Position numbers and translations under genes: made by a program | Assembly (NCBI GenBank): GCA_964421685.1 | Contig: CAYQXU010000001.1 | Location: 1-41,607 of the forward strand | Length of the DNA: 41,607 nt | Source: Candidatus Woesearchaeota archaeon | GTDB lineage: Archaea; Nanobdellota; Nanobdellia; Pacearchaeales; GW2011-AR1 | Direction: 5' to 3' | The notes under the pieces: model-generated | The model's input: only the letters and a program-made list of their open reading frames with translations | Told to the model about the DNA's origin: nothing | Databases searched by the model: none | Shown: positions 6,876-24,781 of the stretch, piece by piece | Position numbering within the stretch: position 1 is the stretch's first letter | Layout of the letters: every line of letters begins with the position of its first letter

Positions 6876-6936
6876 CACTACTTCGTCCAAGCTTGGCCAA
6901 AGTAAAGAATTATGATAAAAATAATTGGTGAATAAA

Positions 6937-7035
6937 TCAAATCTTCTTCTCTTTTCTTAACTGGTATAGTTTAACTATCAAACCAATTGTTGCAAGAATT
7001 GATAAGTAGGTTAATAAGTAATCTGTAAGAATCAT
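6937..7035 (-). CDS. Possible 32-aa single-TM micro-protein
   Basis: Hand-translated as MILTDYLLTYLSILATIGLIVKLYQLRKEKKI. Its ATG overlaps the TGA of the upstream 72-aa ORF (ATGA), which suggests translational coupling. Confidence 0.3.
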   Translation of the reverse strand: MILTDYLLTYLSILATIGLIVKLYQLRKEKKI

Positions 7036-7250: not shown

Positions 7251-7251
7251 T

Positions 7252-8028
7252 TTATCTTCCTGATTTTTTCCTGTATTGCCTTTCTATTGCTATAAGAATC
7301 ATTGCTCCGAAAATTACAAGAATGAACACATAAACAAATGTGTTGTTTTTTAAGTATGAGAGAACAGCGTCGTCTGAGTTTTGGCTAGGACTTATTCCGC
7401 CTGTTACAGGACTTCGACCTGCGCCAGAATTATCTATTGCCCCAATTGCCTGGCCTGTGCCTGAAAGTGGGACAGAGCCTCTTACTAAGCTTTCTTTACC
7501 GTCATTTACGACAATATTGTAAGTGCCGTCAGGAGCAACTAGCCTGTAGGAAATTTTTTCTCCTGGCTCGAGATTTGGCTGTTTTGTGCCTATTGTCTCG
7601 CCTATTTTTATCGTTATCGTCCTAGAATATTTTGTATTCCCTATGTTTGTTACTGTTAGAGTGCTGCCTTCAAGATCAAATCTAGCCAGCTCCTTGCTTC
7701 CAATGTCGAAAAAAGAGATTGCTTTAATATCCTGATATTGTGCATTAATTACTCCTTGGCCCGATGTTGCTTTATCGCCAAGATCGAGTGTTACAACCTC
7801 CTTAGAGAGCACTGTTTTTTCAATGCTTATTTTTTTCTCAAAGTCTTCAATTGTTACTAAGATATTTCCGTCCATAGGCTTTCCCTGGTCGTCATAAAGC
7901 GTTGCCTTGAATGTTATAGGGGTGCCGGCTTCGAATTCATTTCCATTAGGGAAGTCAATATTAATGGATTTTGCTGACACGAGGGATAATAATACTAAAC
8001 AAAATAAAAATAATGCTAGTTTTTTCAT
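7252..8028 (-). CDS. Secreted, C-terminally anchored surface protein
   Basis: 258 aa. N-terminal signal peptide (MKKLALFLFCLVLLSLVSA), beta-rich ectodomain, Gly/Ser/Pro linker, C-terminal TM (FVYVFILVIFGAMILIAI) followed by a basic tail. Confidence 0.6.
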   Translation of the reverse strand: MKKLALFLFCLVLLSLVSAKSINIDFPNGNEFEAGTPITFKATLYDDQGKPMDGNILVTIEDFEKKISIEKTVLSKEVVTLDLGDKATSGQGVINAQYQDIKAISFFDIGSKELARFDLEGSTLTVTNIGNTKYSRTITIKIGETIGTKQPNLEPGEKISYRLVAPDGTYNIVVNDGKESLVRGSVPLSGTGQAIGAIDNSGAGRSPVTGGISPSQNSDDAVLSYLKNNTFVYVFILVIFGAMILIAIERQYRKKSGR

Positions 8029-8128
8029 GCTTATTTTAAGCTTGAGCCTTATTTAAAAGTTTTTATTATTGCCTGTTTTTACAATAAAGTTTAAATACAC
8101 TTTTTATTTAGTATATTAAGGAGAAAAA

Positions 8129-9514: not shown

Positions 9515-9569
9515 TCTTTTTTTCTTTATACAGAAACTTTTAAATACAATAAATGGTACTTTAAAGTGT

Positions 9570-9806
9570 ATGAAAAAAAGTATTACTAAAAGTCCTTTAA
9601 AAAGTACGGTTAATCGCACTAATATGAAAGGGCAAATATTAAATATTCTTAAAAATTTAGAAAAGCCTCTTTCTACGGCAGAGATAGCACAAAATCTTAA
9701 CAAATCTTGGCATACTATAATAAGGTATTGTTTGGATCTTGAAAACGAGAGTAAATTAATTAAATTTGAGATAGGTCGGATTAGTGCTTGGCAAATTAAA
9801 AAATGA
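9570..9806 (+). CDS. Small winged-helix DNA-binding protein
   Basis: ILNILKNLEKPLSTAEIAQNLNKSWHTIIRYCLDLENESKL fits a wHTH pattern. The likely start is the ATG at 9624. The stop overlaps the next gene's start (ATGA at 9803-9806). Confidence 0.6.
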   Translation: MKKSITKSPLKSTVNRTNMKGQILNILKNLEKPLSTAEIAQNLNKSWHTIIRYCLDLENESKLIKFEIGRISAWQIKK

Positions 9807-12800: not shown

Positions 12801-14284
12801 TAGGCGCTGGAACTTACGTATACAGATGGTATGCAAACGACACTTCAGGAAACTTAGTAGCAACTTCAAACCAGAATTATATTGTTGACAAAGAAATTGC
12901 TGCATTATTTTTGACAATTGTGCCAAGCAGCAGTGTTGCTTACGGAACTCAAACAAGCGTCAGCTGCTCTGCAAATAACTTTGAATCTTCATTATCGTTG
13001 ACTAGAAATGCAGCTGGTGTTTCAAACCCTGATGTAAATAATTTCTCTGTTGGAACTTATAATTATGCTTGCACTTCTGTTGCTACACAAAATTATACAA
13101 GCGCCAGCGCTACAGCATCTTTACTAGTAAGCAAGGCAGCGCCTGTAATTAATATTAGCTTAAATGGAGTTAGCAGCGACTTGGCCTTACCGTCAAGCGG
13201 CGGTTTAGTTGAAATAAACGCAAGTCTTGTTTCCCCATCTAGTGGGACTATTAATTTATCAATAGATGGAAGCTTTGTTGCGTCTAATAGTTCATTTATC
13301 CATTATACAAATTCATTTTCTTCTTCTGGAACTCATTTAGTCAATGTTTCATTTGATGGAGATGAAAATTATAGTTTTGGATACTCTAATTATAATGTTG
13401 TCGTGGCGTCGCCGTCTTCTAGCGGCAGCAGTTCTGGCGGGTCAAATGGAGGAAGCTCTGTAAAAAGCTTTGTTGTTCAAAAGAAAGCTGATTTATATGT
13501 GGGAAGTATTCCTGCATTGGTGGTTAGCTCGCCAGGCGTAAAGAAAATTGTAAGCTGGGATGTTAAGAATAATGGGTCTAGTTTTTTAAATGACTGCAAA
13601 TTTAAGAGCGCTGGCTCATATGCTTCTTGGATAACTAAGACAGAAACAAAAGGCTTGGCTGCCGGAGAAGAGTATAGTTTTGTTTTTGATGTTAACATAC
13701 CTGAAGAGTCTAAGGAAGGAAAATACCTTATGCATGTATTGCTTGACTGCAGTGAAGTAAGCAAGTCAGCTGACTTTTTTGTTGAGATTCAGGGAAAACA
13801 AGTTGATTTCAAGTTGGTTGATGTTGAAAGAGCTGGCAAAGGAAATGTAAAAGTTAAATATAACATAAGCGAGCTTAAAGGGATAAATCAAAACCTTGAG
13901 CTTCAATTCTTAATCTTTAGTCTTGACAATAAAAAGGAAGCTGAAGTTAAAGAAGCTAAATCAATTCTTGCAAACTCAAGCCAGGAGTTTGAAACCACTA
14001 TTCCTATAAAGGAGACACTCCAAGGCGATCTAAGTTTGCTTGTTAACATTAATTCTGAAACTTATTCTAGTTTTGTTCAGGAAAATATTGTTCTTGGAAG
14101 CCCTGTCAGCGGGTTTACAATATTCGGGGGTTTAGCTAGAAGAGACTCCTTAATAAGCATTTCATTAGTTTTGCTATTTTTTGTATTCGCATTTTTTATT
14201 GTAAAAAGAATAAGAAGCCATCATAGGGTAATCAAAGGAAATCGTCTTAGACAGAAATATGCGTCGATGCTAGCTGCTTATTAA
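9803..14284 (+). CDS. Giant (1493 aa) membrane-anchored surface protein with an N-terminal cytoplasmic PD-(D/E)xK-like plus RHH module
   Basis: aa 1-95: nuclease-fold-like pattern (PDFIML..GKEVRVELE..SSNFIAHKH...DEIICL). aa 97-136: RHH pattern (KVTLSLDDKVYSDFQRFCEENAIMLSKKIELLMRDLL). aa 137-157: KKK plus a hydrophobic segment. The rest is >1250 aa of repeated Ig-like modules dense in N-x-S/T sequons, then a C-terminal TM and basic tail. Confidence 0.8.
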   Translation: MKEQVIKNEKQFAQWFRKNYKELGYSKIIRGDISRCPDFIMLRNGKEVRVELETISSNFIAHKHSLDSIDEIICLIKDVDLGKPTREIKELKFEGNRKVTLSLDDKVYSDFQRFCEENAIMLSKKIELLMRDLLNKKKNFLLMFFLGIFFISFVSSSTILFDGFESGGLANWTLWSNAGANSNWTASSTDPNTGTFHANGNPRTTNDPGIIMNQSINTSGYKNITFSYARKLNLGTSLKTFRAKWYNGTIWTIVENANNTVDSVYVNKNFTLSSSADNNSNFKISFDCTEGTTTDYCRVDDVNISGNVIDTTPPQISITYPLNSSYNINVTALNYTASDNSALDKCWYSLNNGVTNTTITCGNNVSGLSSNEGSNTWKVWANDTAGNLNSSSKTFFVDTISPNISIISPLNQTFTNATILVNLSASDSNGVSQIWFYNGTANVSYSSPAYYTFPQGSTTIIAYANDTIGNLNSSNKTFFVDSVIPSIVIYSPLNTTYNSSSVFLNYSASDSSGISACWYSRDSNPNISLVGCSTATLTGFSDGSHNIRVYANDTAGNLNSSTAYFSADSTPPSWSGVQSSTPGAYSAQVSYFNVTWNDSSGVSSVLFESNFSGSNQNYSMSLISGNVYGFNATLPAGTFYWKSYANDTLGNLNVSASQIFTISKASNPVDLYINGNKNQNTTVFYGNQTNVTGAAFSGGISIYKNGVLISNPEIAVLAANLSGYIYNATSAGNQNYTSNSTIIYLIVNKSTPGLNMLINGNASSSSLVYGNVSNLTSYEFNSGDDDVVYTLYRDGIAIGLGSSVQDVGVLGVQNYTYTYNTSGGSNYSSNSLARNLEISKASPNVTLLLDGSSSDLSISINDVLNVSASIYSPSTGSIDLYEDSSLNSSGTIISIQKNYTSLGNRVWKTVFLGNQNYSAQNISYTVSVIDSNSPHFSNIKVSPSSQSTYSPNRTYQFNITWTDDIAIDNVIFSFNGTNYSFSSGQVKRNADEYYMNISNLGAGTYVYRWYANDTSGNLVATSNQNYIVDKEIAALFLTIVPSSSVAYGTQTSVSCSANNFESSLSLTRNAAGVSNPDVNNFSVGTYNYACTSVATQNYTSASATASLLVSKAAPVINISLNGVSSDLALPSSGGLVEINASLVSPSSGTINLSIDGSFVASNSSFIHYTNSFSSSGTHLVNVSFDGDENYSFGYSNYNVVVASPSSSGSSSGGSNGGSSVKSFVVQKKADLYVGSIPALVVSSPGVKKIVSWDVKNNGSSFLNDCKFKSAGSYASWITKTETKGLAAGEEYSFVFDVNIPEESKEGKYLMHVLLDCSEVSKSADFFVEIQGKQVDFKLVDVERAGKGNVKVKYNISELKGINQNLELQFLIFSLDNKKEAEVKEAKSILANSSQEFETTIPIKETLQGDLSLLVNINSETYSSFVQENIVLGSPVSGFTIFGGLARRDSLISISLVLLFFVFAFFIVKRIRSHHRVIKGNRLRQKYASMLAAY

Positions 14285-14509: not shown

Positions 14510-14824
14510 TTATAATCTGCTTTTTTTTCTGTTTAATATTAATATTTCTTTATTAATGTCAGACAAAGCTTCTCTTAGCATACTCTGCTGTTTATTTTTG
14601 GGTTTGTTCATTTTCATTTTTCTTATTCTTTTCTTTGGTTTTTTCAGAATTTTCCTTGCGATTTTGTTTTGCTTAAAGTACCTAGACAGGGCTTCAGATA
14701 TTTCCTTTTTTTCGTATCCGCTTTTGGACAGAATACTTTTTATATCTTTTTCAGAATATTTTTGTTTTATAGCCTCCTTTATCCAATTTTTGAGCTCTTC
14801 ATCCCCATTTTCATTAAAGACCAT
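14510..14824 (-). CDS. Small Lys-rich protein, possibly the 5' part of a frameshifted coiled-coil gene
   Basis: 104-aa ORF. Downstream, an open 59-codon coiled-coil-like frame without an ATG continues to 14353 and is reachable by a 1-nt change in an A8 run. Confidence 0.45.
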   Translation of the reverse strand: MVFNENGDEELKNWIKEAIKQKYSEKDIKSILSKSGYEKKEISEALSRYFKQNKIARKILKKPKKRIRKMKMNKPKNKQQSMLREALSDINKEILILNRKKSRL

Positions 14825-14911
14825 TTAAATTTATAAATGTTCCTTTTATCTTTCCTTATGCGACTTAAATATATTATTTATTTTGGCAGTCTAGTTTCTC
14901 TTAGTTTTAAT

Positions 14912-16747
14912 TTACTCATTTAGCGTTTTCTTTAGCCCCTTTTTAGCTTTTTCATATGAGTCTTTAGATATATATTTTCCCAAATAAGCTCTTTCCAGGG
15001 CTTCTAGCTTATTTTTTATTTTTTTTACATTCTTATCTTTTTCGATAATTTTTTTTCTTTCTTCTTCTATATTTTCCGATCTTTCGTCAACTTTTTTCTT
15101 GTATGATGAAATGTCTTCTCTTATTTTTTTCTGCCCACGCCTTAAAATGACAGCTATTATCAATAAAACTAAGACAATTGATCCTATTAGGATAAGCATA
15201 AGATATAGCAAAGATGAGCCTTTAACTCCTGATTCTTTTTCTGTTTTGACAATAATTGAAAAGCTGCTGCTTGCACTCTTGCCTTCATAATCAACTTTTA
15301 CGTATATTATGTATTGTCCGCCGTCCATATTTTTCGGCAATTTTATTAATTTAACATAATTTATCTGACCGTCAACTGCTAAGCTTTCTGTGGCTGAAGT
15401 TATTATATCTCCATAAATGCTTACTATTCTATATTCTATATCAACATCAACTTTTTTATGAACATCTGCTACTTCAAATATTCTTACGTTTAAGAGAATC
15501 TCATCGCCCGGGGAAACTATGGAAAATTGTGTTGGTACTTTTATTTCAACATCAAATAAAGCACTATCTGACTCAACTTCAACTGCCGTTAAAATTTCTT
15601 CTTTTTCACCTCCTGATTCAACTATTATCTTTCCAACATATAAGCTAGGTATAGTGCTTTCTTTTGCTATGAAGTCTATTGTAATTTCTTTTTCTTCTCC
15701 AGGCTTTAGAGTGAATTCTTTTTCATTTATTATCGTGATCTCTTCTATTTTTTGAGCACTTATTTTAATTTTCGTTTCTTCATTTCTTGCATTCTTTACT
15801 TTTATGATTTCTGATTTAATTTGCCCTTGTTTTAAGGACACTTTTATTTCTTTTTTATCTAAGGAAAATATGCTTGGCGTTGCTGGAGAACTTGACCCGC
15901 CCCCACTTGTAATCTTTCCTGTGCCTGATGAAGCTGGAGCCTCTTCTGCAGAATAAACTGAGAAGCCTGTTACATTGAATATTAATGCTCCTCCTGAATA
16001 GCTTTGCTGTGTGCATATTGATGAAGAGCAAACTTCCCCATCTTTTAAGATTCTTGGATTGGTGAAATTTAAATTGTATAAAGTTAAGGTTGCTGGCTTG
16101 TTGAAGTTTGGAAGCTCTGTGGAGTTTATTTCTATTCTGTTATCGGAAATTTTGACACCGTAGCTTAAATTAACTTGATTATCATTGTTGTTAAGATCAT
16201 TTGTCACATTTATTGCCTGATTAAATAATATTTTTCCATAGTTAGTATTTTCTAAAATTATGTTGCTCAAGTTTTGAATATCTTCATAGCTTGAAATGTT
16301 GAAGTTGTTTGAAATACCGCTGTTTGAGCCTGCAAATTCTTCGTAATAAATTGTGAATTTAGACAGGTTTACAAAGAAGCTTACATTTTTTGCTGTAAGG
16401 CCGTAGCTATTGTTAGCGTATAAATATAAAGTATGGTTACCTGAGGTTGTGTTAAAGTAAGTTGAAGAGGCAATTGTGGTGTTTGCAGAATCGTCTATGT
16501 TATAGACTATGGAACTTGCGTAACGAGAGGTGAAGTTTAATAAGAGAGAGTTGTTGTTAAAGTAAGTGTCATTTCTAGGGCTTATTAAGGTTAATTCCGG
16601 GGGCCCTGTAAGAGTTATGTTTATAGCAACATTTTGCGCTGTTGACTCTCCTGTTATTTTTTTTGGATTTGTATTGACTTTTATTAATGAGAATAAAACT
16701 ATTATTAATATAAAAATTCCAAGCAAGAAAAATAACCTCTTATTCAT
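14912..16747 (-). CDS. Surface protein (611 aa) with C-terminal TM and cytoplasmic coiled-coil/SHOCT-like tail
   Basis: N-terminal signal/anchor, sequon-rich ectodomain, CARDB/DUF11-like modules (LKPGEEKEITIDFIAKE...), TM (LLYLMLILIGSIVLVLLIIAVIL), and the tail LEALERAYLGKYISKDSYEKAKKGL. Confidence 0.7.
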   Translation of the reverse strand: MNKRLFFLLGIFILIIVLFSLIKVNTNPKKITGESTAQNVAINITLTGPPELTLISPRNDTYFNNNSLLLNFTSRYASSIVYNIDDSANTTIASSTYFNTTSGNHTLYLYANNSYGLTAKNVSFFVNLSKFTIYYEEFAGSNSGISNNFNISSYEDIQNLSNIILENTNYGKILFNQAINVTNDLNNNDNQVNLSYGVKISDNRIEINSTELPNFNKPATLTLYNLNFTNPRILKDGEVCSSSICTQQSYSGGALIFNVTGFSVYSAEEAPASSGTGKITSGGGSSSPATPSIFSLDKKEIKVSLKQGQIKSEIIKVKNARNEETKIKISAQKIEEITIINEKEFTLKPGEEKEITIDFIAKESTIPSLYVGKIIVESGGEKEEILTAVEVESDSALFDVEIKVPTQFSIVSPGDEILLNVRIFEVADVHKKVDVDIEYRIVSIYGDIITSATESLAVDGQINYVKLIKLPKNMDGGQYIIYVKVDYEGKSASSSFSIIVKTEKESGVKGSSLLYLMLILIGSIVLVLLIIAVILRRGQKKIREDISSYKKKVDERSENIEEERKKIIEKDKNVKKIKNKLEALERAYLGKYISKDSYEKAKKGLKKTLNE

Positions 16748-16781
16748 AATTAAGATAATTATTAGGTCTATTTAAAATTTG

Positions 16782-17387
16782 TTAGTATTTTACTTTCTTT
16801 AAGGAAGCTTGCTTTTTACTGTTTTCTTCTTTAGACCTTTTTACATACCATATTATTATAGATATTGCCACAATTGCTATTATAATGATAATCATTATGC
16901 TTATAGGGAAGGTCTTTTTGGCTGCTCCAGCAGAAGGAGAAGGCTCTTCTTTTTTACTTACTATTTTGACAGGTATTTTGCTAGTAAATCCGCTAGATAC
17001 TTCTAACATTCCTCCTCCATTAGTAGAAACTTGTTTGAATGAGACCATTATTTGATCTATTGAACCTATTTCTTTGTCTGCTGGAATGTCTATTTTAACT
17101 TTTACAGTAACATTTTCTGTGCCAAATGGAACCTCATACAACAAGTCATTGTCGTCTATTATTTGGGCTATTTCACTTCCAGCAGTAATGTTAGCATTTA
17201 TAGTTATATCTTGAGGTTCACCTGCCATGTTTTGTAGATATAACGTAACTGTACTTGACTCTCCAGGGGTCAGTTCTAAGTATCCACTTTTAAAATAAGG
17301 AGTTACCACTCCTGACGCATTTGTAAATGATATAAGTGCTACTAAAATAATAAACAAGATTGCTATTTTGTATTTTATTTTTTCCAT
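16782..17387 (-). CDS. Small anchored surface protein
   Basis: Start taken at MEKIKYK (17387). Signal/anchor, one beta-sandwich-like domain (LTPGESSTVTLYLQN...), C-terminal TM and Lys-rich tail. Confidence 0.65.
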   Translation of the reverse strand: MEKIKYKIAILFIILVALISFTNASGVVTPYFKSGYLELTPGESSTVTLYLQNMAGEPQDITINANITAGSEIAQIIDDNDLLYEVPFGTENVTVKVKIDIPADKEIGSIDQIMVSFKQVSTNGGGMLEVSSGFTSKIPVKIVSKKEEPSPSAGAAKKTFPISIMIIIIIAIVAISIIIWYVKRSKEENSKKQASLKKVKY

Positions 17388-17392
17388 TTTTG

Positions 17393-18313
17393 TTATATTA
17401 CCGCAACATTCCACGATCCGTATGCGGAAGATGAATATGACTGCTGGCTTAGGCTTGAAGGCAGTCCTGTAAGACAGAAGTATAAATTTTGCTGTCCTGA
17501 TGTAAAGTTTCCGTAGTTTAATGAATTATTCCCTCTTTGAAGCAATGCTGAGGTTATGTTTTTGGAGGTTGCATTAGCCATTGTTGTTCCTGAACAGCCT
17601 TGAGATATATTCTGAACACTGAAGTTTGCAGCATAAATAAATTCAGTGAGAGTTGTTTCTCCTCTTAAATCGTAAGCTGTAACATTAGTGTCGACAACTT
17701 CATCATTTCCTGTGTTATTTATTATTATTGGATCATTGTTTGAGCCTGTATTTGTAGTTGAAGCAGTTATTGTTGTCCATGTTAATGCTGTAGGACTCAT
17801 AACCATTGATGTAAGTGTGTTATATGTGAATGTTGTTGATGAGTTTTCTGCATAGCTTCCGCTATTGTCTTTTATTGTTGCATTAATTGTCCATGCTGCA
17901 GGCTTGTCGAAATATTGCATTGAAATTGTGCATGTAAAATTAATGTTGTTTCCAACACCTATAGATGTATTTATGCAGGAAGTGTTTGATCTCGTTGTTT
18001 CACCTGAAAATTGAAAGTAAGCTTTAGCAGAGCTTAAATTAATGTTTGAACTTCCATCTACATCATTTGCTGTATAGTTGAATGTTATTGCCTTTGTTGA
18101 AGATTCTGTTGGATTTTGCGATGAAATTGCATTAACAATAGTTACTGTTGGGGCTGTGTTTCCAATTGTTATATTTAAAGAAGCTGTACCTGAAGTTGCC
18201 TTACCTGTTATTTTTGGACTTTTGAAAAAATCAAAAATCCCTGCAGATACAAATGTAGTTATAATTATTCCGACTATGACTATCATAAAAAGAACATAAA
18301 CCTCCTTTCTCAT
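17393..18313 (-). CDS. Secreted 306-aa paralog of the membrane-proximal ectodomain of the 1521-aa protein
   Basis: Own signal peptide. aa about 55-306 align with aa about 1080-1330 of the ORF at 18352..22917, including DNA blocks with 100% identity. Ends at ...YGSWNVAVI without an anchor. Confidence 0.7.
   Translation of the reverse strand: MRKEVYVLFMIVIVGIIITTFVSAGIFDFFKSPKITGKATSGTASLNITIGNTAPTVTIVNAISSQNPTESSTKAITFNYTANDVDGSSNINLSSAKAYFQFSGETTRSNTSCINTSIGVGNNINFTCTISMQYFDKPAAWTINATIKDNSGSYAENSSTTFTYNTLTSMVMSPTALTWTTITASTTNTGSNNDPIIINNTGNDEVVDTNVTAYDLRGETTLTEFIYAANFSVQNISQGCSGTTMANATSKNITSALLQRGNNSLNYGNFTSGQQNLYFCLTGLPSSLSQQSYSSSAYGSWNVAVI
17411..18155. repeat. Direct repeat, copy A (partner at 18934-19675)
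   Basis: Mosaic similarity. Exact blocks at 17418-17566 = 18941-19089 (149 bp) and 17790-17944 = 19313-19467 (155 bp) are separated by diverged patches. Confidence 0.9.
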
Positions 18314-18351: not shown

Positions 18352-21300
18352 TCATTTTTTTACTGCTTTTTTGTATATGCTTCCTATATTTCTCTGGTCT
18401 CTTTCAACTAACGACGATATTTCTGAATATTTAAGGCCCTTTTCTTTTAGATGAACAACTATTGATTCTAGTATTGTCAGCTTTCTATTCTTGAATATTT
18501 CTATCGGCAGGGTGTAGCCTTTTTCTTTTATCATTAAAGGATCTTTCTTCTTTTCATAAGCTTTCTTGTAGGCTGTCCATATTGTTCTTTCATCTCTCAA
18601 CAATTGCTTTGAAATTTCCCTATAGTTCATTCCAAGGTTTTCCTTCATGTATTTAACTAAAGATTCTAGCGCTCCTAGTTCTTTTGTGAATATAGACACT
18701 GGGATATTCTTTTGCTTCATTTCTATTATTTCTGCAATCTCTTTTTCACTCAAGCCATATCTTTCTTTCATTTCCTTGATTATTATTTCCAGCAGCTCTT
18801 TTTTATCAAGTGTATATTTTTCTTTTAGCTCGTCCATAATTAACCCTAAAGCCTTGACAAGTCTGTCTTCCTTGATCCCTTTCTTTTTCTTTCTTGATTT
18901 AGGAATTATAAGAGCGAGAAGCACTGTTACACTCCACGACCCGTATGCGGAAGATGAATATGACTGCTGGCTTAGGCTTGAAGGCAGTCCTGTAAGACAG
19001 AAGTATAAATTTTGCTGTCCTGATGTAAAGTTTCCGTAGTTTAATGAATTATTCCCTCTTTGAAGCAATGCTGAGGTTATGTTTTTGGATGTTGCATTAG
19101 CCATTGTTGTTCCAGAACAGCCTTGGGATATATTCTGGATGCTGAAATTTGCAGCATAAATAAATTCTGTTGTAGTTGTTTCCCCCCTTAAATTATAAGC
19201 TGTGACATTTGTATCAAGAACTTCATCATTTCCTGTGTTATTTATCAAGATAGGGTCATTATTGGAGCCTACATTCGTCTGCCATGTAACAATCTGATCC
19301 CATCCTAGCGACGTAGGACTCATAACCATTGATGTAAGTGTGTTATATGTGAATGTTGTTGATGAGTTTTCTGCATAGCTTCCGCTATTGTCTTTTATTG
19401 TTGCATTAATTGTCCATGCTGCAGGCTTGTCGAAATATTGCATTGAAATTGTGCATGTAAAATTAATATCATTGCCGACTGGGACAGAGGTATTTATGCA
19501 GCTTGTGTTCTGTCTTGTTGTTTCACCTGAAAATTGAAAGTAAGCTGCTGCAGTGCTGATATTGATTGTAGAGCCGCCGTTTGCATCTGTTGCTGTGAAG
19601 TTGAATGTTATTGCCTTTGTTGAAGATTCTGTTGGATTTTGCGCAGAGATTGCGTTAACTGCTCCTATTGTTGGAGCTACTTGGCTGATTATGTTGACAA
19701 CATAGGAATTATTTAATCCTAAATTTCCTGCGCTGTCATTAACGTACACATTTATTGTTCTATTTCCATCTGCAAGACTTGTCAAGGGGATTGATGTTGT
19801 GTTACACCAACCATTGGATACAGATAGAGTTGTATTTGTTCCATTTACTTCAATACTACATGAAACAGGTAAGGTTGTCACATCAGTTGCAGAAATGTTT
19901 AGTGTTAGAGTAGCTGTATTTTGTTTTTGAGTTGCGTTAGTATAGGCAGGCAGAGTTATTGTAGGTGCAGTCGTATCTACAATAAATGTCCTGTTTGCTG
20001 ACGTGAATGCAGAATTTCCCACAGTATCATTTCCCCAAGCAGCCCAAACGTATTTTCCATCGGAAATGCTTGCTACTGTGACGTTCCACCATGAATTATT
20101 TAATGGAGTTGCGTTTGTCTGATTTGCTATCCAACTCCCACTCCAATTTCCATAGAGTGCTAAATAGTTAACTGCCACATTATCTGCTATTTTTAGATCA
20201 AAAGTAACTGATTTTGAACTTGAATTGTAATTGTCTACGGGATTTGTTCCAAAAGTTAGATTTGGGGCTACTGCGTCAACTATTATTGTCCTATTGCTTG
20301 ACCAACCCTCGCCCCCAGAAGAATCATTACACCTTATTCCCCAAATAAAACTTGAGTTAGATAAACCACTTGTTGATAGATTATACCATGTAGCGTTAGT
20401 TGGAGAAGATTGGGTTGTTTTTGCTGCCCATGTTCCTGTGTCGTTTGTCCATATTTCCAAAGCTGATAATGTGGAATCTATGTCGTCAGTACACTTAGCA
20501 TCAAATACAGCTGTTGTACTAGCAGTAGTGTTTGCATTAGCAGGATTTGTTCCAAGAGCAGCTATTGGATTTAAATCTACTTTAGTTACATTGAGCTGTG
20601 AATTATTTCCTGAAGAATTAAATAAAACATATCCTCGATAAGTACCATTATACCATAACTCAGTTCCAATGAAATGTCCAGCGGGAAGCAGGTATCCTGA
20701 AGAATTTGAACAACCTGTGGAATTGCTTCTGTATGTTGGAGCAATTTGATTACAATTAAAACTAAGTGGACTCGAGCAAATTTGTGCTTTTGTTCCACAA
20801 GCTGAGTCAGTACAGTCAAGTACACGATATAGATTTATGTAACGGTCTTTTGTTAAAGTACTGTTTGATGCATTGCACCAGATACCTATTGGGAAAGCTC
20901 CAGAGAGATTTGTGTTTACTGCGAAAGAACTGCTAATAAAATACACAGATTGATTTCCGGTGGCAACCCAATCAGCAACCGCCGATCCTGTTGAAGTACC
21001 TAAAGACTGATTAGACACATTTCCTGAAGAAGATATTCCTCTGAAATAATAAGTTGTTAAAACGTTTGTTGGATCGACAATGTGATCAATTTCAACACTT
21101 CCTCCGACAACTTTTAAATCAAATGTCTCTTGGCTGTTTTGCAAGCTTGTTAAAAGAACTTTGTTGTATTGATTATCTTGGATGTTTGTGAATTCTGCTA
21201 TTTTTGTACTCGAGTCTTTTTCATAAACTTCTATTTTTGGCGAGCCACTTATTTTTCTTGGATAAATGGTTATATCATTTGAAGATGTAAGATTTTTTTC

Positions 21301-22917
21301 GAAAGTTACTCTTACGTAATCTTGGTTTGGAATAGTTTCGCTCCAAATTCCATCAAGTTTTTTCACTTCTTCGTAAATATCTGAGAGGAAGTTTTTATCT
21401 TTATCTAAGTGTTCGGCCTTTGTAATAACTATAATTTCAAATGTCTGGTTGCTTAAGCTAGGGACGAGCCATTCTATATAGTCATAAATTCCGTTGCTGT
21501 CTTTATCTTGCACAGAGCTTGGAGATAGATAAGTATTTTGCTCTATCCAATGAATTTTTATTCTTGAGGGATCTTTTAATTTAAGAGATTCTGGCAGATT
21601 TGTGAATGCAAGAACATTTGTGTAGTGGATTCCATCTGGAGAAGAAATCTTTATTCTTTTCCCTCTTGAAATTGTTTCTTCTAAAACTGATGGGGCAGGG
21701 GTTTCGTATTCTAATTCATATATGGAAGAAGAATCCCCTATAGAAATTTCAAGAACAGATGGTCCGGATTGGGAAGGACTCATTTCTTTCTCCGAGACAT
21801 CTGCTTTGATTTCCTTCAATTTTATTTTTTGAGCATCTTTAGGAATTGATATTTTTGTTTTGCCTGTTTTTTTTGGCGTAATTGTTTGCTTCCACTTTAC
21901 ACTTTCTCCTATTTTTCCAGGAAGCTGTATTGTTGTTATATTAAAATCTTGAGTCATGTTTTCTGCTGTTTCATTAACGTTTGTTATGTTGGTTTCTGTT
22001 ATGTTTCTTGGAGGAGTTATTGTTATATTTGTAATGTTTTCTTCTGGTGCTATTTCAGGCACTTTTGGCTTTTCTATGATAATTCCATAGTTTATCCTAT
22101 GAATTTTTAGTACTGTTCCAGCCCCTCCACCATCACCCCGACCACCCACCCCTTCATTCGAAATTTCAATCTTTATATTGTAAGATGACTTATTTAACAA
22201 AAGAGATTCTATATTGCATGTTTCTTCGCAGATATTGGAGAAATTAATGATTTTTATTTGCGAAGGAATTTCCTCACTTGCATTTGTTGCATTTGAAGAA
22301 GTGCCGAAAAACGATTCTTGAATTGCTCCTTGCTTTGAGTTTGGAAAAATTGAACTATCTAAAATTAAGATTTTATCAAGGTAAACTTTAACGATTCCTT
22401 CCCCTTTAATTAGACCATCAATATTGACATAACTTAAATTTCCTTGATTTTCAAGTTTCCATTCATAAGTTGTTGAGTCATTAGTTTCTATGTTTATTTC
22501 TTGAAAAAATTCTTGCTTCTCAATGCTAATTTCAGGAGCTCTCCCTTCTGAAACTAAAAATCCAGTGAGTTTTATGTTTGCTAGTTGAGAGAAAGCGAAT
22601 GTGAGTGCGATTAAAATTATTGAGAAAATTAATATGTTTATTGTGTGATTTTTAATTATGTGTTTTTTATGTTTTTTTATTTCAATTTCACACTCTTTTA
22701 TGTGATTATCATAGTGATTAATGTATTCATGAATATTTTTTCCATCGTGCTTTTTATGATGTGTTTCAATAAAATTAGCATATGTAATTTGTTTTTTATG
22801 ATAAGCATGATGTAGGTTTTCTAAGTAATTCTGGAGATGTTTTTTTCTAATATTTGCTTCTTTAATTTGCTCTTTGAGCTGGGCTATAGAAGCTTTTGCT
22901 AAGCGAGTCCTTTTCAT
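18352..22917 (-). CDS. Giant (1521 aa) two-TM surface protein with His-rich N-terminal and tandem-HTH C-terminal cytoplasmic domains
   Basis: aa 1-92: His/Lys-rich. TM at aa 93-112. About 1200 aa of sequon-rich ectodomain with Ig-like modules. A short hydrophobic segment (VTVLLALIIP) plus KSRKKKKG. A 182-aa tail with two Tfx/LuxR/sigma-r4-like HTH repeats. Confidence 0.8.
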   Translation of the reverse strand: MKRTRLAKASIAQLKEQIKEANIRKKHLQNYLENLHHAYHKKQITYANFIETHHKKHDGKNIHEYINHYDNHIKECEIEIKKHKKHIIKNHTINILIFSIILIALTFAFSQLANIKLTGFLVSEGRAPEISIEKQEFFQEINIETNDSTTYEWKLENQGNLSYVNIDGLIKGEGIVKVYLDKILILDSSIFPNSKQGAIQESFFGTSSNATNASEEIPSQIKIINFSNICEETCNIESLLLNKSSYNIKIEISNEGVGGRGDGGGAGTVLKIHRINYGIIIEKPKVPEIAPEENITNITITPPRNITETNITNVNETAENMTQDFNITTIQLPGKIGESVKWKQTITPKKTGKTKISIPKDAQKIKLKEIKADVSEKEMSPSQSGPSVLEISIGDSSSIYELEYETPAPSVLEETISRGKRIKISSPDGIHYTNVLAFTNLPESLKLKDPSRIKIHWIEQNTYLSPSSVQDKDSNGIYDYIEWLVPSLSNQTFEIIVITKAEHLDKDKNFLSDIYEEVKKLDGIWSETIPNQDYVRVTFEKNLTSSNDITIYPRKISGSPKIEVYEKDSSTKIAEFTNIQDNQYNKVLLTSLQNSQETFDLKVVGGSVEIDHIVDPTNVLTTYYFRGISSSGNVSNQSLGTSTGSAVADWVATGNQSVYFISSSFAVNTNLSGAFPIGIWCNASNSTLTKDRYINLYRVLDCTDSACGTKAQICSSPLSFNCNQIAPTYRSNSTGCSNSSGYLLPAGHFIGTELWYNGTYRGYVLFNSSGNNSQLNVTKVDLNPIAALGTNPANANTTASTTAVFDAKCTDDIDSTLSALEIWTNDTGTWAAKTTQSSPTNATWYNLSTSGLSNSSFIWGIRCNDSSGGEGWSSNRTIIVDAVAPNLTFGTNPVDNYNSSSKSVTFDLKIADNVAVNYLALYGNWSGSWIANQTNATPLNNSWWNVTVASISDGKYVWAAWGNDTVGNSAFTSANRTFIVDTTAPTITLPAYTNATQKQNTATLTLNISATDVTTLPVSCSIEVNGTNTTLSVSNGWCNTTSIPLTSLADGNRTINVYVNDSAGNLGLNNSYVVNIISQVAPTIGAVNAISAQNPTESSTKAITFNFTATDANGGSTINISTAAAYFQFSGETTRQNTSCINTSVPVGNDINFTCTISMQYFDKPAAWTINATIKDNSGSYAENSSTTFTYNTLTSMVMSPTSLGWDQIVTWQTNVGSNNDPILINNTGNDEVLDTNVTAYNLRGETTTTEFIYAANFSIQNISQGCSGTTMANATSKNITSALLQRGNNSLNYGNFTSGQQNLYFCLTGLPSSLSQQSYSSSAYGSWSVTVLLALIIPKSRKKKKGIKEDRLVKALGLIMDELKEKYTLDKKELLEIIIKEMKERYGLSEKEIAEIIEMKQKNIPVSIFTKELGALESLVKYMKENLGMNYREISKQLLRDERTIWTAYKKAYEKKKDPLMIKEKGYTLPIEIFKNRKLTILESIVVHLKEKGLKYSEISSLVERDQRNIGSIYKKAVKK
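18934..19675. repeat. Direct repeat, copy B (partner at 17411-18155)
   Basis: See copy A. Same orientation, offset about 1.5 kb. Confidence 0.9.
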
Positions 22918-23042
22918 ACTTATTATTTATGTATTTATATTTATAAATATATGTAAAAATATAAAAAGTACTTATTATTAATGTATAGAGGCTTTTGTGG
23001 TAGCTAAGAAAGATTTATAATGTTTTGTAGTTACTAATTGTC

Positions 23043-23192
23043 ATGGCGTTTATTGTTAAAAAAAAGATTAGTGGAAAGGAGTATTATTATCTTAATGAAA
23101 CTAAAAGAGAAAATGGGAAAGTTGTTAGCAAACATATAGCTTATCTAGGGAAAAATAAAGAAGAGGCTGAAAAAAGGCGAAAAATATTTTAA
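23043..23192 (+). CDS. Possible 49-aa protein
   Basis: Hand-translated as MAFIVKKKISGKEYYYLNETKRENGKVVSKHIAYLGKNKEEAEKRRKIF. It shares the K.I.GK.Y.Y....R..GK......LG pattern with the N-terminus of the Fic protein at 34743. Confidence 0.35.
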   Translation: MAFIVKKKISGKEYYYLNETKRENGKVVSKHIAYLGKNKEEAEKRRKIF

Positions 23193-23215
23193 ATGGTTTT
23201 AAGCAAGTTAATAGG

Positions 23216-24781
23216 ATGACTGAAAATAAAGTAGATAGAGTAAAAATTAGTTTAGTTAAGAAAGAAATTTCTGTAGATGAAATGGCTGCTTTTTGCAAGA
23301 GAAAGGGATTTGCCTATCCTTCTTCAGAGATTTATGGAGGATTGGCAGGGTTTTATGATTATGGCAGCTTAGGTTTTTTATTAAAGAAAAACTTTGAAAA
23401 TGTTTGGAGAAGTTTTTTTCTAGGGCTTAATGATAACTTTGTTGAAATTGAATCTTCTGAGGTTATGCCTGAAAAAGTTTTTGTAGGGAGCGGGCATTTA
23501 AAAAATTTTAATGATTTTGCAGCTAAATGCAAGAAAGGACATATTGAAAGAGCAGATCATTTACTTGAAAAAAACCTAAATCAAAGGTTTGAGGGGCTGA
23601 GTGCTGAAGAGTTGTTTGGAAAAATAAAAGAGAACAAGATTAAGTGCTCCATTTGCGGCTCTGAAATTGAATTTGTAGAAATTACCAATATGATGTTTCC
23701 TATTCAATTAGGTTTTGGAAATAATATAAAAGCCTTTTTGAGACCTGAAACGGCCCAAAGCCCTTATGTTAATTTTAAAATTCAGTCAGAGGTTATGAGG
23801 AAAAAACTTCCTTTGGGAATTGCTTTAATTGGAAGGGCTTATAGAAATGAGCTGTCTCCTAGAAACTTTTTACTGAGACAGAGAGCATTTACACAGGCAG
23901 AGCTTCAAATATTTTTCAACCCTTCAAAAATAGACGAACATGAGGAATTCGATGAAATTAAAGACTATTTTCTCAGAGTTGTTCTTAGTGATGAAAGAGA
24001 GAAAGGAATTCAGAAAGTAAAATGCCAGGATTTATTGAAGAAAATACCTAAGTTTTATGTTTATTATCTTGCAAAGGTTCAACAATTTTATTTTGATATT
24101 TTAAATTTTCCAGAGGATAAATTTAGATTTTATGAACTAAATCATGATGAAAAGGCGTTTTATAACAAATATCACTTTGATATGGAAGCAGAGCTTGATT
24201 TTTTGGGCTGGACAGAAATTGGGGGAGTTCATTATAGGACTGATCATGACTTAAAAGGCCATCAAGAAGTTTCAAAGGAAAATCTTGCTTTCTATGATGA
24301 TGAAACTAAAGATAAATTTATTCCACATGTTCTTGAGTTAAGTTTTGGTGTAGATAGAAATTTTTACTCGATTATGAATTTTTCTTATTTTTTTGATTCA
24401 AAGATGGAAAATATTGTTTTGAAAATCCCTCCGAAGTTAGCCCCTATAAAAGCTTCTGTATTTCCTATTGTAAAAGTTGATGAAAACATCGTCAAATATG
24501 CTAGAGATATCTTTAACGGGCTTAAGAAACATTTTAATGTAATTTACGATGATGGGGGTTCCATAGGCAGAAGATATTCAAGAGCTGACGAAGGTGGGAT
24601 TCCATTTTGCATAACTATTGATGAGCAAGCTTTGAAAGATAAAACAGTTACGATAAGAGATCGAGATAGTACTGAACAGGTTAGGGTAAAGGTTGTTGAA
24701 ATAAAAAACTTCATCGAAAGAGTTCTTTCTGGAGAAAATCCTCTAAAACTTGGAAAAATTATTCAAACTAGGAAAAAATAA
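23216..24781 (+). CDS. glyS: Glycine--tRNA ligase (archaeal/eukaryotic alpha2 type)
   Basis: 521 aa. Class II motifs (FLRPETAQ, GRAYRNE.SPR), a Cys-containing insertion, and a C-terminal anticodon-binding domain (GSIGRRYSRADEGGIPFCITID). Confidence 0.93.
   Translation: MTENKVDRVKISLVKKEISVDEMAAFCKRKGFAYPSSEIYGGLAGFYDYGSLGFLLKKNFENVWRSFFLGLNDNFVEIESSEVMPEKVFVGSGHLKNFNDFAAKCKKGHIERADHLLEKNLNQRFEGLSAEELFGKIKENKIKCSICGSEIEFVEITNMMFPIQLGFGNNIKAFLRPETAQSPYVNFKIQSEVMRKKLPLGIALIGRAYRNELSPRNFLLRQRAFTQAELQIFFNPSKIDEHEEFDEIKDYFLRVVLSDEREKGIQKVKCQDLLKKIPKFYVYYLAKVQQFYFDILNFPEDKFRFYELNHDEKAFYNKYHFDMEAELDFLGWTEIGGVHYRTDHDLKGHQEVSKENLAFYDDETKDKFIPHVLELSFGVDRNFYSIMNFSYFFDSKMENIVLKIPPKLAPIKASVFPIVKVDENIVKYARDIFNGLKKHFNVIYDDGGSIGRRYSRADEGGIPFCITIDEQALKDKTVTIRDRDSTEQVRVKVVEIKNFIERVLSGENPLKLGKIIQTRKK

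What the first reader, a model, noticed from the sequence alone, without database searches (positions are those of the whole stretch)
18355..18900. Tandem Tfx/LuxR/sigma-region-4-like HTH repeats on the cytoplasmic tail of a giant surface protein
After the hydrophobic segment and KSRKKKKG stop-transfer-like signal, the last 182 aa contain two similar units:
- IPVSIFTKELGALESLVKYMKENLGMNYREISKQLLRDERTIWTAYKKAYEKK
- LPIEIFKNRKLTILESIVVHLKEKGLKYSEISSLVERDQRNIGSIYKKAVKK

Both fit the L..lE..V......G.s..EIs..l.r...Ti.....kA.kK helix-turn-helix pattern. A 1300-aa ectodomain covalently linked to two DNA-binding motifs suggests a membrane-bound one-component regulator.

The hydrophobic segment is short (about 12-14 residues), so the membrane topology needs testing.
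Basis: partly seen in the sequence, partly recalled or inferred. Interest (0 to 1): 0.7.

Follow-up and report, generated by a model that had tools for sequence, protein, structure and literature searches.

The report
Giant archaeal surface protein with DNA-binding tail
A 1,521-residue surface glycoprotein of a tiny DPANN archaeon ends in two real helix-turn-helix DNA-binding units, this fusion is conserved in the giant genes of most of the 80 related species inspected, and its own promoter carries a matching pair of conserved 18-bp sites, so the cell-surface protein probably controls its own gene from the membrane.

Summary
The last 182 aa (18355-18900, minus strand) of ORF 18352-22917 hold two units that are 44% identical. 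They score above Pfam's cutoff for Sigma70_r4_2. AlphaFold models them at pLDDT 95-98. They superpose at under 1 Å on sigma region 4, RcsB and the Tfx-family regulator EnfR.

It is not a frameshift. A scan of one genome per species found 311 loci encoding the HTH pair. In about 70 of the best 80, all DPANN-labelled apart from a few oddly labelled bins, the pair ends a large open frame. That frame exceeds 1,200 aa wherever the contig holds the whole gene. In four divergent loci the pair is a separate soluble gene overlapping the start of the giant gene.

New here: an asymmetric 18-bp motif, ATACAYANATARTAAGTA, sits twice at the giant gene's promoter, at -69 and -17, flanking the TATA box. All 84 matches in 1.15 Mb lie in such promoters.

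The best reading is a membrane-tethered autoregulator. The weak point is topology. The segment before the polybasic run has only 8-10 hydrophobic residues in relatives and is not predicted to insert on its own. The composition of the tail is nevertheless cytoplasmic in type. I rate it a new variant of the known transmembrane transcription regulators.

The parts
18352..22917 (-). Giant gene, 1521 aa: N-terminal cytoplasmic-type domain, TM, ectodomain, short hydrophobic segment, polybasic run, linker, two HTH units.
   Evidence: Orthologous open frames of 1,200 to more than 3,400 aa with the same ends occur in dozens of DPANN genomes.
22639..22917 (-). N-terminal ~93-aa basic helical domain (MKRTRLAKASIAQLKEQI...HYDNHIKECE...), cytoplasmic in type.
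   Evidence: Conserved in 33 of 35 complete orthologs. K+R 24.5% and 0.63 sequons per 100 aa. No Pfam or NCBIfam family.
22579..22635 (-). Canonical N-terminal transmembrane anchor (ILIFSIILIALTFAFSQLA), followed by a conserved LTGF motif.
   Evidence: Top hydrophobic segment of the protein. Rough insertion energy -2.3 kcal/mol here, median -2.9 in 34 orthologs (positions).
18937..22578 (-). Ectodomain of about 1,210 aa, rich in Asn/Ser/Thr, with Ig-like repeats.
   Evidence: Pfam Big_3_4, Big_3_3 and Big_13. 66 N-x-S/T sequons here. Across 30 proteins: 4.86 sequons per 100 aa and K+R 5.4%.
18919..19689 (-). Last ectodomain module (aa 1077-1333), duplicated as the free 306-aa protein encoded downstream.
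   Evidence: 86% identity over 257 aa. The alignment ends at ...SWSVTVL, which marks the end of the fold. DNA identity 85-93%.
18901..18936 (-). Short hydrophobic segment WSVTVLLALIIP, the putative minimal stop-transfer or membrane segment.
   Evidence: Second most hydrophobic stretch in the protein. The junction W-T-I-[KR]-(8-10 hydrophobic residues)-polybasic is present in 52 relatives. Rough insertion energy +1.7 kcal/mol.
18877..18900 (-). Polybasic clamp KSRKKKKG.
   Evidence: Relatives carry a median of 8 K/R in the 12 residues after the hydrophobic run, range 6-11.
18706..18876 (-). Helical linker of about 57 aa with two short repeats (KEKYTLDKKELLEII / KERYGLSEKEIAEII).
   Evidence: Three helices at pLDDT 65-80. 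Weak MCM winged-helix and Sigma70_r4_2 stretches. Absent or shortened in some relatives.
18547..18705 (-). HTH unit A (IPVSIF...RDERTIWTAYKKAYEKK).
   Evidence: Pfam Sigma70_r4_2 best stretch. pLDDT 96-98. Recognition helix R-[DN]-x-R-T-I-W-[TS]-x-Y is nearly invariant.
18355..18510 (-). HTH unit B (LPIEIF...RDQRNIGSIYKKAVKK).
   Evidence: 44% identical to unit A. Sub-threshold NCBIfam hits to sigma70-ECF, Tfx and EnfR fall here. pLDDT 95-98.
22917..22934 (-). Proximal 18-bp operator-like site ATACATAAATAATAAGTA. Its last A is the A of the ATG.
   Evidence: Exact consensus. Same position (-17/-18) in most of the 38 promoters.
22939..22947 (-). TATA box TTTATAAAT, centred about 26 nt before the ATG, which implies a leaderless mRNA.
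   Evidence: Read from the sequence. TTTATAAG/A sits at the same place in the aligned promoters. The transcription start itself is inferred.
22969..22986 (-). Distal 18-bp operator-like site ATACATTAATAATAAGTA, 52 bp upstream of the proximal one.
   Evidence: One mismatch to the consensus. These two are the only matches with up to 3 mismatches in the 41.6-kb window. Position -69/-70 is conserved.
14510..18313 (-). Four co-oriented, closely spaced downstream genes (306, 210, 611 and 104 aa), a probable operon with the giant gene.
   Evidence: Gaps of 38, -22, 34 and 87 nt. The same gene order occurs in L001, L002, L014, L054 and L073.

Best explanation
**Identity (shown).** The tail is a DNA-binding module built from two tandem HTH units of the sigma-70-region-4/Tfx type. 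It sits at the C-terminus of a conserved family of giant DPANN surface glycoproteins that are anchored at the N-terminus.

**Topology (inferred).** The N-terminal basic domain stays in the cytoplasm. One canonical TM exports about 1,210 aa of glycosylated Ig-like ectodomain. Translocation then stops at a minimal hydrophobic segment of about 9 residues, clamped by 6-11 Lys/Arg. This leaves the linker and both HTH units in the cytoplasm, tethered at the membrane.

**Target (inferred).** One tail binds one asymmetric 18-bp site, ATACAYANATARTAAGTA, with one HTH on the ATACA half and the other on the TAAGTA half. Two such sites lie 52 bp apart (five helical turns) and flank the TATA box of the protein's own leaderless promoter.

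**Effect (inferred).** The proximal site lies between the TATA box and the start codon, so occupancy should block RNA polymerase. The giant protein would then repress its own operon, which includes the four downstream surface-protein genes. Whatever removes, clusters or cleaves the protein at the surface would change expression.
For: HTH identity:
- Pfam Sigma70_r4_2 scores 36.9 bits against a cutoff of 25.7.
- pLDDT is 95-98.
- Local fits to sigma region 4, RcsB and EnfR are below 1 Å. EnfR is a Tfx-family promoter-binding repressor with a sigma-r4-type HTH (PMC10570040).

Conserved fusion:
- A scan of one genome per species found 311 loci encoding the pair.
- In about 70 of the best 80, the pair ends a large open frame. 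That frame exceeds 1,200 aa wherever the contig is long enough.

Functional linkage (fused in most lineages, split in a few):
- In L002, L075, L083 and L086 the pair is a soluble 164-186-aa gene.
- Its stop overlaps the start of a giant TM-anchored glycoprotein gene.

Operator:
- 35 of 38 promoters carry at least two copies at fixed positions.
- All 84 matches in 1.15 Mb abut a giant-gene start, against 0-3 in shuffles.
- Only these two matches exist in the window.
- The two sites of one genome resemble each other more than sites of other genomes (permutation p=1e-4).
- Loci with divergent stand-alone HTH genes have divergent direct repeats. In two of the four, the 52-53-bp spacing is kept.
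- L075 and L086 giants lack the N-terminal domain. L075 still has clear repeats; L086's are weak. L075 thus points to the HTH as the binder.

Cytoplasmic tail:
- Sequon density is 0.61 per 100 aa in the tail, 0.63 in the N-terminal domain and 4.86 in the ectodomain.
- K+R is 23% in the tail against 5.4% in the ectodomain.

Precedent:
- Short poly-Leu segments of 9-10 residues can be inserted by translocons (PMC4796907).
- Transmembrane transcription regulators are widespread, including in archaea (PMC10269533).
- ArnR in Sulfolobus is a membrane-bound regulator of surface-structure genes (PMC6396743).
Against: - No binding experiment links the tail to the motif. Another factor could bind it.
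- The hydrophobic run is far shorter than the 19-24-residue anchors of the same gene cluster. My rough Hessa-type estimate, with parameters from memory, position-independent and ignoring flanking charges, gives +1.7 kcal/mol here and a median of +3.2 in relatives.
- The paralog alignment suggests that WSVTV is the last strand of the folded module. That leaves only about 6-7 hydrophobic residues free.
- AlphaFold gave no confident model of the junction.
- Whole-chain Foldseek E-values are not significant.
- The 18-bp motif partly resembles the core promoter itself (TACATA + AT-rich), so part of its conservation could reflect basal promoter function.
- The direction of regulation rests only on site position.
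Confidence: 0.55

Rival explanations
1. The same architecture, but the tail works only after release. A protease cuts within or next to the short, Pro-containing hydrophobic segment when the ectodomain is engaged or damaged. The freed tandem-HTH protein then acts on the operators. This resembles anti-sigma factor, SREBP or Notch proteolysis.
For: - Soluble stand-alone versions of the same module exist and evidently function untethered.
- The anchor is unusually weak and often ends in Pro (ILLVAIIP, LALIIP). By general knowledge, not tested here, such helix-breaking residues are typical of intramembrane-protease substrates.
- In the split loci the gene order, an HTH gene overlapping a membrane-anchored gene, mirrors sigma/anti-sigma operons.
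Against: - No protease gene lies in the window or in the conserved cluster.
- No cleavage motif has been identified.
- Membrane-tethered regulators that bind DNA without release are well documented (PMC10269533).
- In a very small cell the tethered form could reach the chromosome.
Confidence: 0.2
2. The tail is cytoplasmic and HTH-folded but is not the factor that reads the 18-bp sites. It binds DNA non-specifically, tethering the chromosome to the surface apparatus, or it binds a protein partner such as the N-terminal domain or the basal transcription machinery. The operators belong to another regulator.
For: - Sigma region 4 domains also make protein contacts with anti-sigma factors (Foldseek hits 3hug, 8z6g, 3vep).
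- The conserved basic N-terminal domain has no assigned function and is a candidate partner or alternative DNA binder.
- The link between tail and operator is purely correlative.
Against: - The recognition helices are nearly invariant and rich in Arg, Thr, Asn and Tyr, as expected for specific DNA reading.
- The motif is asymmetric and 18 bp long, which fits two non-identical HTH units on one chain.
- The motif changes where the HTH changes.
- The L075 promoter keeps clear repeats although its giant lacks the N-terminal domain.
Confidence: 0.15
3. The hydrophobic stretch does not span the membrane, and the tail is exported with the ectodomain. The polybasic run and the HTH units then sit on the outside, for example holding extracellular DNA or acidic surface polymers.
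For: - The segment fails the rough insertion estimate in all 52 relatives.
- The folded module seems to include its first residues.
- DPANN archaea depend on external nucleic-acid building blocks (general knowledge).
Against: - The tail has cytoplasmic-type composition and almost no glycosylation sequons, like the N-terminal domain.
- The stand-alone relatives have no signal peptide or TM.
- 6-11 Lys/Arg directly after the segment fit the positive-inside rule.
- An external role would leave the promoter-specific operator pair without a cognate factor in the cluster.
Confidence: 0.08
4. Artefact: a separate small HTH gene was joined to the giant ORF by a lost stop codon, a frameshift or a misassembly near 18900.
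For: - Single genomes do show breaks. L014 has a stop inside the linker, and L001 has a break before the last module.
- Stand-alone HTH genes exist elsewhere.
Against: - The frame is continuous here.
- The same junction (W-T-I-K/R, 8-10 hydrophobic residues, polybasic run, linker, HTH pair) recurs in 52 independent assemblies.
- In the stand-alone cases the HTH gene lies upstream of the giant gene, not downstream.
Confidence: 0.01

Closest known systems
Transmembrane transcription regulators (TTRs) such as ToxR, CadC and TcpP, as surveyed by Demey et al. 2023 (PMC10269533)
   Same: One polypeptide combines a DNA-binding domain with a membrane anchor and an extracytoplasmic domain. Regulation is thought to occur from the membrane. 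The class is reported in archaea as well as bacteria.
   Different: - Classic members have an N-terminal OmpR-type winged helix, one TM and a small periplasmic sensor.
- Here the DNA-binding part is C-terminal and is a tandem of sigma-r4/Tfx-type HTH units.
- It follows a ~1,210-aa adhesin-like ectodomain and needs a second, atypically short, membrane passage.
- The words 'DPANN' and 'Nanoarchaeota' do not occur in that paper's main text.
ArnR/ArnR1 of Sulfolobus acidocaldarius (PMC6396743)
   Same: Archaeal membrane-bound one-component regulators that bind promoters of cell-surface structure genes.
   Different: They are not themselves surface structural proteins, and no sequence relationship was found. 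By general knowledge, not tested here, they are small proteins with an N-terminal HTH and C-terminal TM helices.
Tfx family, including EnfR of Thermococcus onnurineus (PDB 8HNO/8HNP; PMC10570040)
   Same: - Archaeal sigma-70-region-4-like HTH.
- Unit-level superposition at 0.7-0.8 Å with 33% identity over 42 residues.
- EnfR binds a promoter site that reaches the translation start and acts as a repressor.
   Different: - Tfx proteins are soluble dimers with one HTH plus an acidic C-terminal domain, and they bind pseudo-palindromes.
- The tail has two HTH units in one chain, no Tfx C-domain and an asymmetric candidate site.
- TIGR00721 scores 17.5 bits against a cutoff of 60.25.
ECF sigma / anti-sigma pairs (for example SigE-RseA, SigL-RslA)
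   Same: - A sigma-r4-type HTH is held at the membrane by a single-pass protein with an N-terminal cytoplasmic domain and an external domain.
- In the four split loci, the HTH gene overlaps the start of the membrane-protein gene, as in sigma/anti-sigma operons.
   Different: - Archaea have no sigma factors.
- No sigma region 2 and no anti-sigma domain was detected.
- In most lineages the two parts are one polypeptide.
Giant membrane-anchored surface proteins of Nanohaloarchaeota ('SPEARE'; PMC10266531)
   Same: Very large Ig-like, membrane-anchored proteins of DPANN archaea that also carry a domain of cytoplasmic type, a VirB4/TraG-like ATPase.
   Different: That domain is an ATPase, not a DNA-binding domain. 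The lineage is different and no homology was tested. No autoregulatory sites have been described for them.
Cbp1, the CRISPR repeat-binding protein of Sulfolobus (PDB 2LVS)
   Same: An archaeal protein made of tandem HTH repeats. Foldseek prob 0.75 over 102 columns.
   Different: The E-value is not significant. By general knowledge, not tested here, Cbp1 is a soluble protein with three repeats that binds CRISPR repeat DNA.

Membership tests
Pfam PF08281 Sigma70_r4_2 (HTH domain family) | Score at or above the gathering threshold of 25.7 bits | tested here: met
   36.9 bits, E=2.8e-9 for the tail with three stretches. 26.7 bits for the full protein. Most relatives carry the same precomputed Pfam hit.
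Sigma-70 family sigma factors | Presence of region 2 (core-binding and -10 recognition) in addition to region 4 | tested here: not met
   No Sigma70_r2 hit at E<=1. TIGR02937 scores 19.5 bits against a cutoff of 42.9, matching only the region-4 end of the model.
Tfx family (TIGR00721) | Family HMM score at or above 60.25 bits, that is an N-terminal HTH plus the Tfx C-terminal domain | tested here: not met
   17.5 bits, over HTH positions 8-47 of the model only. EnfR (NF053597) scores 17.8 against a cutoff of 260. The HTH fold matches 8HNP locally.
LuxR/GerE-type regulators (PF00196) | Match to the GerE HTH model | tested here: not met
   GerE is not among the Pfam hits at E<=1. Only local structural similarity to RcsB, VpsT and SdiA was found.
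Transmembrane transcription regulators (definition of PMC10269533) | A predicted DNA-binding domain and at least one predicted transmembrane region in one protein | tested here: met
   HTH domains plus a canonical N-terminal TM. The definition is quoted.
Transmembrane transcription regulators | DNA-binding domain located in the cytoplasm and acting on DNA from the membrane | tested here: inconclusive
   Composition and sequon density are cytoplasmic in type, and soluble relatives exist. However, the second membrane segment is not predicted to insert. No TM predictor such as DeepTMHMM was available.
ToxR/CadC-like regulators | N-terminal OmpR-type winged-helix (Trans_reg_C) domain | tested here: not met
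   No Trans_reg_C hit. The N-terminal domain has no family match.
Anti-sigma/sigma or Notch/SREBP-type regulated proteolysis systems | Signal-dependent cleavage that releases the DNA-binding part | not testable with these tools
   No protease gene lies in the window. Cleavage can only be shown experimentally.
Autoregulated operon (operator-repressor pair) | Specific binding of the encoded HTH to sites in its own promoter | not testable with these tools
   The support is correlative: 84 of 84 motif matches lie at giant-gene promoters, and the motif and the HTH diverge together.

The most novel reading that the evidence does not exclude
The giant protein is a contact receptor of an episymbiotic archaeon. 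Binding or pulling on the ectodomain at the host surface destabilises the deliberately minimal anchor of about 9 residues, or exposes it to cleavage. This frees or repositions the tandem-HTH tail from the two operators and switches the whole surface-protein operon. That would be a Notch-like, mechanically or proteolytically gated signalling device in Archaea, conserved across the 311 species-level genomes in which the HTH pair was found.
Probability: 0.15. Interest if true: 0.85.

Novelty: new variant of a known kind. Interest (0 to 1): 0.7.

Why it matters
DPANN archaea live attached to other cells. How they sense contact and control their surface is unknown, and almost none can be cultured.

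This family offers a concrete, testable circuit:
- a defined DNA-binding module of about 120 aa;
- a defined 18-bp site present twice in a defined promoter;
- a physical link to a giant surface protein;
- natural fused and split versions to compare.

The conserved 8-10-residue hydrophobic segment followed by a polybasic clamp is also a natural test case for how short a stop-transfer signal can be.

If the tail binds the sites, this would be one of the clearest archaeal examples of a structural cell-surface protein that carries its own transcription factor.

Tried and rejected
- **PDB sequence searches** found nothing significant. I searched with the tail and with a profile of single units. The best hits, S100/troponin C at E=0.035 and an Xre-type protein at E=0.085, I treat as chance.
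- **Whole-chain Foldseek matches** for both models were not significant (E>=0.009). Only the local HTH superpositions are informative.
- **AlphaFold of the last 332 aa** gave no usable model of the Ig module or the junction (pLDDT<50). It therefore could not settle whether the hydrophobic stretch is a strand or a helix.
- **The frameshift or missed-stop idea** was rejected.
- **A viral or mobile origin** was rejected. There are no relatives in IMG/VR, and the window is ordinary archaeal chromosome with TFB, tRNA-splicing endonuclease, aminoacyl-tRNA synthetases and glycolysis genes.
- **An archaeosortase-type C-terminal sorting signal** (motif + TM + basic tail) was considered. I did not adopt it, because 180 folded residues follow the basic run and the hydrophobic part is too short.
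- **The N-terminal domain as the operator binder** is disfavoured. The L075 and L086 giants lack that domain, and the L075 promoter still has clear repeats; L086's are weak.
- **Co-variation between single motif positions and single recognition-helix residues** could not be established. Both are too conserved among the 35 fused loci.
- **Four literature searches** found no prior description of this family. The library is limited to open-access papers.
Full report
**1. What is at the coordinates**

- The finding lies at the 3' end of a single continuous ORF, 18352..22917 on the minus strand, 1521 aa.
- Reading the DNA: TGG (W1328) is at 18936-18934, the hydrophobic stretch WSVTVLLALIIP ends at 18901, KSRKKKKG starts at 18900, the last Lys codon ends at 18355, and TGA is at 18354-18352. 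The coordinates and the quoted peptides are exact.
- The two units, aa 1405-1457 and 1470-1521, align at 44% identity with E=3e-13 for the pairwise comparison.

**2. Are they helix-turn-helix domains?** Yes.

- The 202-aa C-terminal piece scores 36.9 bits (E=2.8e-9) against Pfam Sigma70_r4_2, cutoff 25.7, with three matched stretches. HTH_23 and an archaeal MCM winged-helix model give weaker hits.
- NCBIfam gives only sub-threshold hits, and all are to the expected relatives: sigma70-ECF, Tfx (TIGR00721) and EnfR.
- AlphaFold2 with 53 sequences models each unit as a short strand plus three helices at pLDDT 95-98. The preceding ~57-aa linker forms three helices at pLDDT 65-80.
- Foldseek against the PDB gives no significant whole-chain match. 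It does give tight local superpositions (prob 0.99-1.00, rmsd 0.7-1.0 Å, 42-44 residues) on SigR region 4 (5fgm), SigL region 4 with RslA (3hug), RcsB on DNA (5vxn), SigE region 4 on -35 DNA (2h27) and 8hnp_B at 33% identity.
- 8HNP is the T55I mutant of EnfR, a Tfx-family repressor. Its sigma-r4-type HTH binds a promoter site that reaches the translation start (PMC10570040).
The family HMMs for Tfx, for sigma factors (no region 2) and for GerE are not met.

**3. Is the fusion real?**

- A search of 5.8 billion proteins with the tail found 60 relatives. All come from metagenomes or from bins labelled Nanoarchaeota or Nanoarchaeia. Many are contig-end fragments that carry the same junction...SQSYS..GSWTIKILLVALIP-KKKKK-linker-HTH-HTH.
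- A scan of one genome per GTDB species found 311 loci encoding the HTH pair. The best 80 are labelled Nano-, Woese- or Pacearchaeota, apart from a few oddly labelled bins.
- In about 70 of them the pair ends a large open frame. That frame runs from 1,200 to more than 3,400 aa wherever the contig holds the whole gene.
- The junction is nearly universal: W-T-I-[K/R], then a median of 9 uncharged residues (interquartile range 8-10), then a polybasic run with a median of 8 K/R in 12 residues, then 120-370 aa with two or four HTH units.
- A missed stop or frameshift is excluded.
- The N-terminus is conserved too. It is a ~90-aa basic helical domain (MGRTRLAKA.I.ELK...EWI.YYD.YI.ECE), then a canonical 19-aa TM, then LTGF, in 33 of 35 complete genes.

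**4. Stand-alone versions**

- In L002, L075, L083 and L086 the HTH pair is a separate 164-186-aa protein with a basic N-terminus and no hydrophobic segment.
- In every case its stop overlaps by 4-16 nt the start of a gene for a large N-anchored, sequon-rich surface protein.
- In L002 that giant ends at ...GLWTVSIQ*, exactly where the hydrophobic segment would begin.
- Being fused in most lineages and adjacent in a few is classic evidence of a functional link. It also shows that the module works as a cytoplasmic protein.

**5. A candidate target**

- Aligning the 300 nt upstream of the giant genes revealed an 18-bp asymmetric motif, consensus A-T-A-C-A-Y-A-N-A-T-A-R-T-A-A-G-T-A.
- 35 of 38 promoters have at least two copies, typically starting at -69/-70 and -17/-18 from the ATG. 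The spacing is 52 bp. TTTATAAG/A lies between them, centred about 26 nt before the ATG, which implies a leaderless mRNA.
- In the window the copies are 22969-22986 and 22917-22934 (minus strand), and the TATA box is 22939-22947. They are the only matches with up to 3 mismatches in 41.6 kb.
- A degenerate scan of 1.15 Mb of window plus loci, on both strands, gave 84 matches. All lie directly upstream of a giant-type start codon. This includes the second giants of tandem pairs and two genes with broken frames. Shuffled sequence gave 0-3.
- Distal and proximal sites of one genome are more alike than sites from different genomes: 2.17 against 2.78 mismatches, permutation p=1e-4.
- The split loci, whose HTH sequences are the most divergent, have different direct repeats. 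L075 has three copies of ATACMWTRTTTATAGG. L083 has two copies of TACTTACAYAGAMAGAAA, 52 bp apart. L002 has copies of TACTTAKTTRAATAGA. L086 has only weak repeats.
- L075 and L086 giants lack the N-terminal domain. L075 nevertheless keeps clear repeats, which points to the HTH pair rather than the N-terminal domain as the reader of the sites.
- An 18-bp asymmetric site with conserved ends about 12 bp apart is what two different HTH units joined by a 12-residue linker would be expected to cover. That last point is inference, and none of this is a binding experiment.

**6. Topology, the weak point**

- The N-terminal TM is ordinary.
- The C-terminal segment is the second most hydrophobic stretch of the protein but is short.
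- I made a rough Hessa-type estimate. It uses position-independent values and length coefficients recalled from the 2007 scale and ignores flanking charges. It gives +1.7 kcal/mol here and a median of +3.2 (range 1.3-6.1) in 52 relatives.
- The same estimate gives -2.3 to -7.6 for the six other anchors or signal peptides of this cluster.
- The downstream 306-aa paralog is 86% identical to aa 1077-1333 and stops at ...SWNVAVI. WSVTV therefore probably belongs to the last strand of the folded module, and only about LLALIIP is free.
- In favour of a cytoplasmic tail:
  - Sequon density is 0.61 per 100 aa in the tail, 0.63 in the N-terminal domain and 4.86 in the ectodomain.
  - K+R is 23%, 24.5% and 5.4% respectively.
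  - The polybasic clamp fits the positive-inside rule.
  - The soluble relatives have no export signal.
  - Published work shows that 9-10 leucines can be inserted by translocons, although Leu/Ala mixtures need at least 13 (PMC4796907).
- I conclude that a cytoplasmic, tethered tail is the most likely state but is not shown.

**7. Mechanism proposed**

- Shown: the domain identity, the conserved architecture, the gene linkage, and the promoter-specific motif pair.
- Inferred: the tail is cytoplasmic, one tail binds one 18-bp site, and occupancy of the proximal site, which lies between the TATA box and the start, represses the operon.
- That operon comprises the giant gene and the four tightly spaced downstream genes. 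Their order is conserved in L001, L002, L014, L054 and L073.
- Whether the tail acts tethered or after proteolytic release, and whether the ectodomain senses anything, is open.

**8. Comparison with what is known**

- By the definition of Demey et al. 2023 (a DNA-binding domain plus at least one TM), this is a transmembrane transcription regulator. That class is reported as widespread in bacteria and archaea. Archaeal ArnR/ArnR1 regulate surface-structure genes from the membrane.
- It differs from the classic members in several ways:
  - the DNA-binding part is C-terminal;
  - it is a tandem of sigma-r4/Tfx-type HTH units;
  - the carrier is a giant adhesin-like glycoprotein;
  - a minimal second membrane segment is required;
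  - the candidate target is its own promoter.
- Giant DPANN surface proteins with a cytoplasmic-type domain are known in Nanohaloarchaeota, but there the domain is a VirB4-like ATPase.
- I found no description of this family in four literature searches.
- Hence I classify it as a new variant of a known kind.

**9. Verdict**

- The finding is real, widespread and mechanistically suggestive.
- The main uncertainties are the membrane topology and the lack of direct evidence that the tail binds the operators.
- Interest 0.7.

Noticed in passing
window 17393-18313 (-): A 306-aa protein with its own signal peptide is 86% identical to the last ectodomain module of the giant protein (aa 1077-1333) and stops where the hydrophobic segment would begin. 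DNA identity is 85-93%. L001, L002, L014, L054 and L073 also encode a ~300-340-aa protein directly downstream. Where the ends are visible it closely resembles the last module of its own giant, which suggests concerted evolution of a free copy.
   Followed up: partly
window 9803-14284 (+); L001 14644-19272 (-): The convergent second giant surface protein (1493 aa) has a ~150-aa cytoplasmic-type N-terminal domain before its TM. The domain is conserved in L001. Only a weak NCBIfam hit to a LexA-regulated protein (E=0.038) was found. None of the 18-bp motif matches in the window falls in its promoter.
   Followed up: partly
L001 5159-9940; L017 about 4197-10357: Orthologous giant genes in two genomes carry an intein-like insertion (CYDSETEIF...MTLNQKTGEKEWQKPTDYQTFKHNEEMY...). 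The L017 reading frame is interrupted around it. The L001 frame breaks further downstream, before the last module.
   Followed up: no
window 22997-23036 (-): A second conserved promoter motif, TAGGCACTAC in most loci and TTAGTAACTAC / TTAGCTACCAC here, occurs twice flanking a TATAAAT box. It lies between the giant promoter and the divergent gene and is possibly the site of another regulator.
   Followed up: no
window 23043-23216 (+): A plus-strand ORF starting at 23043 (MAFIVKKKISGKEYYYLNETKR...) stops after about 47 aa. The class-II aminoacyl-tRNA-synthetase-like ORF is called from 23216 in another frame. The L014 ortholog is one 557-aa ORF with this N-terminal extension. This suggests a frameshift at an A-run or a sequencing error.
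   Followed up: partly
L018 1629-1699; L059 20090-20351; L076 2558-2817: Giant genes occur in tandem. Shortly after the HTH tail of one gene comes a new operator pair and a new MGRT... start. This arrangement could explain how fused and split forms interconvert.
   Followed up: partly
L014 8014-8024: In this genome the giant ORF is cut by a stop inside the linker, so the HTH pair is called as a separate 150-aa protein (P0026). An intact version of nearly the same sequence exists in another sample (P0007).
   Followed up: partly
L002 7052-7876 (-): A tyrosine recombinase (phage-integrase family) gene lies directly upstream of the stand-alone HTH gene and giant gene cluster in this genome.
   Followed up: no
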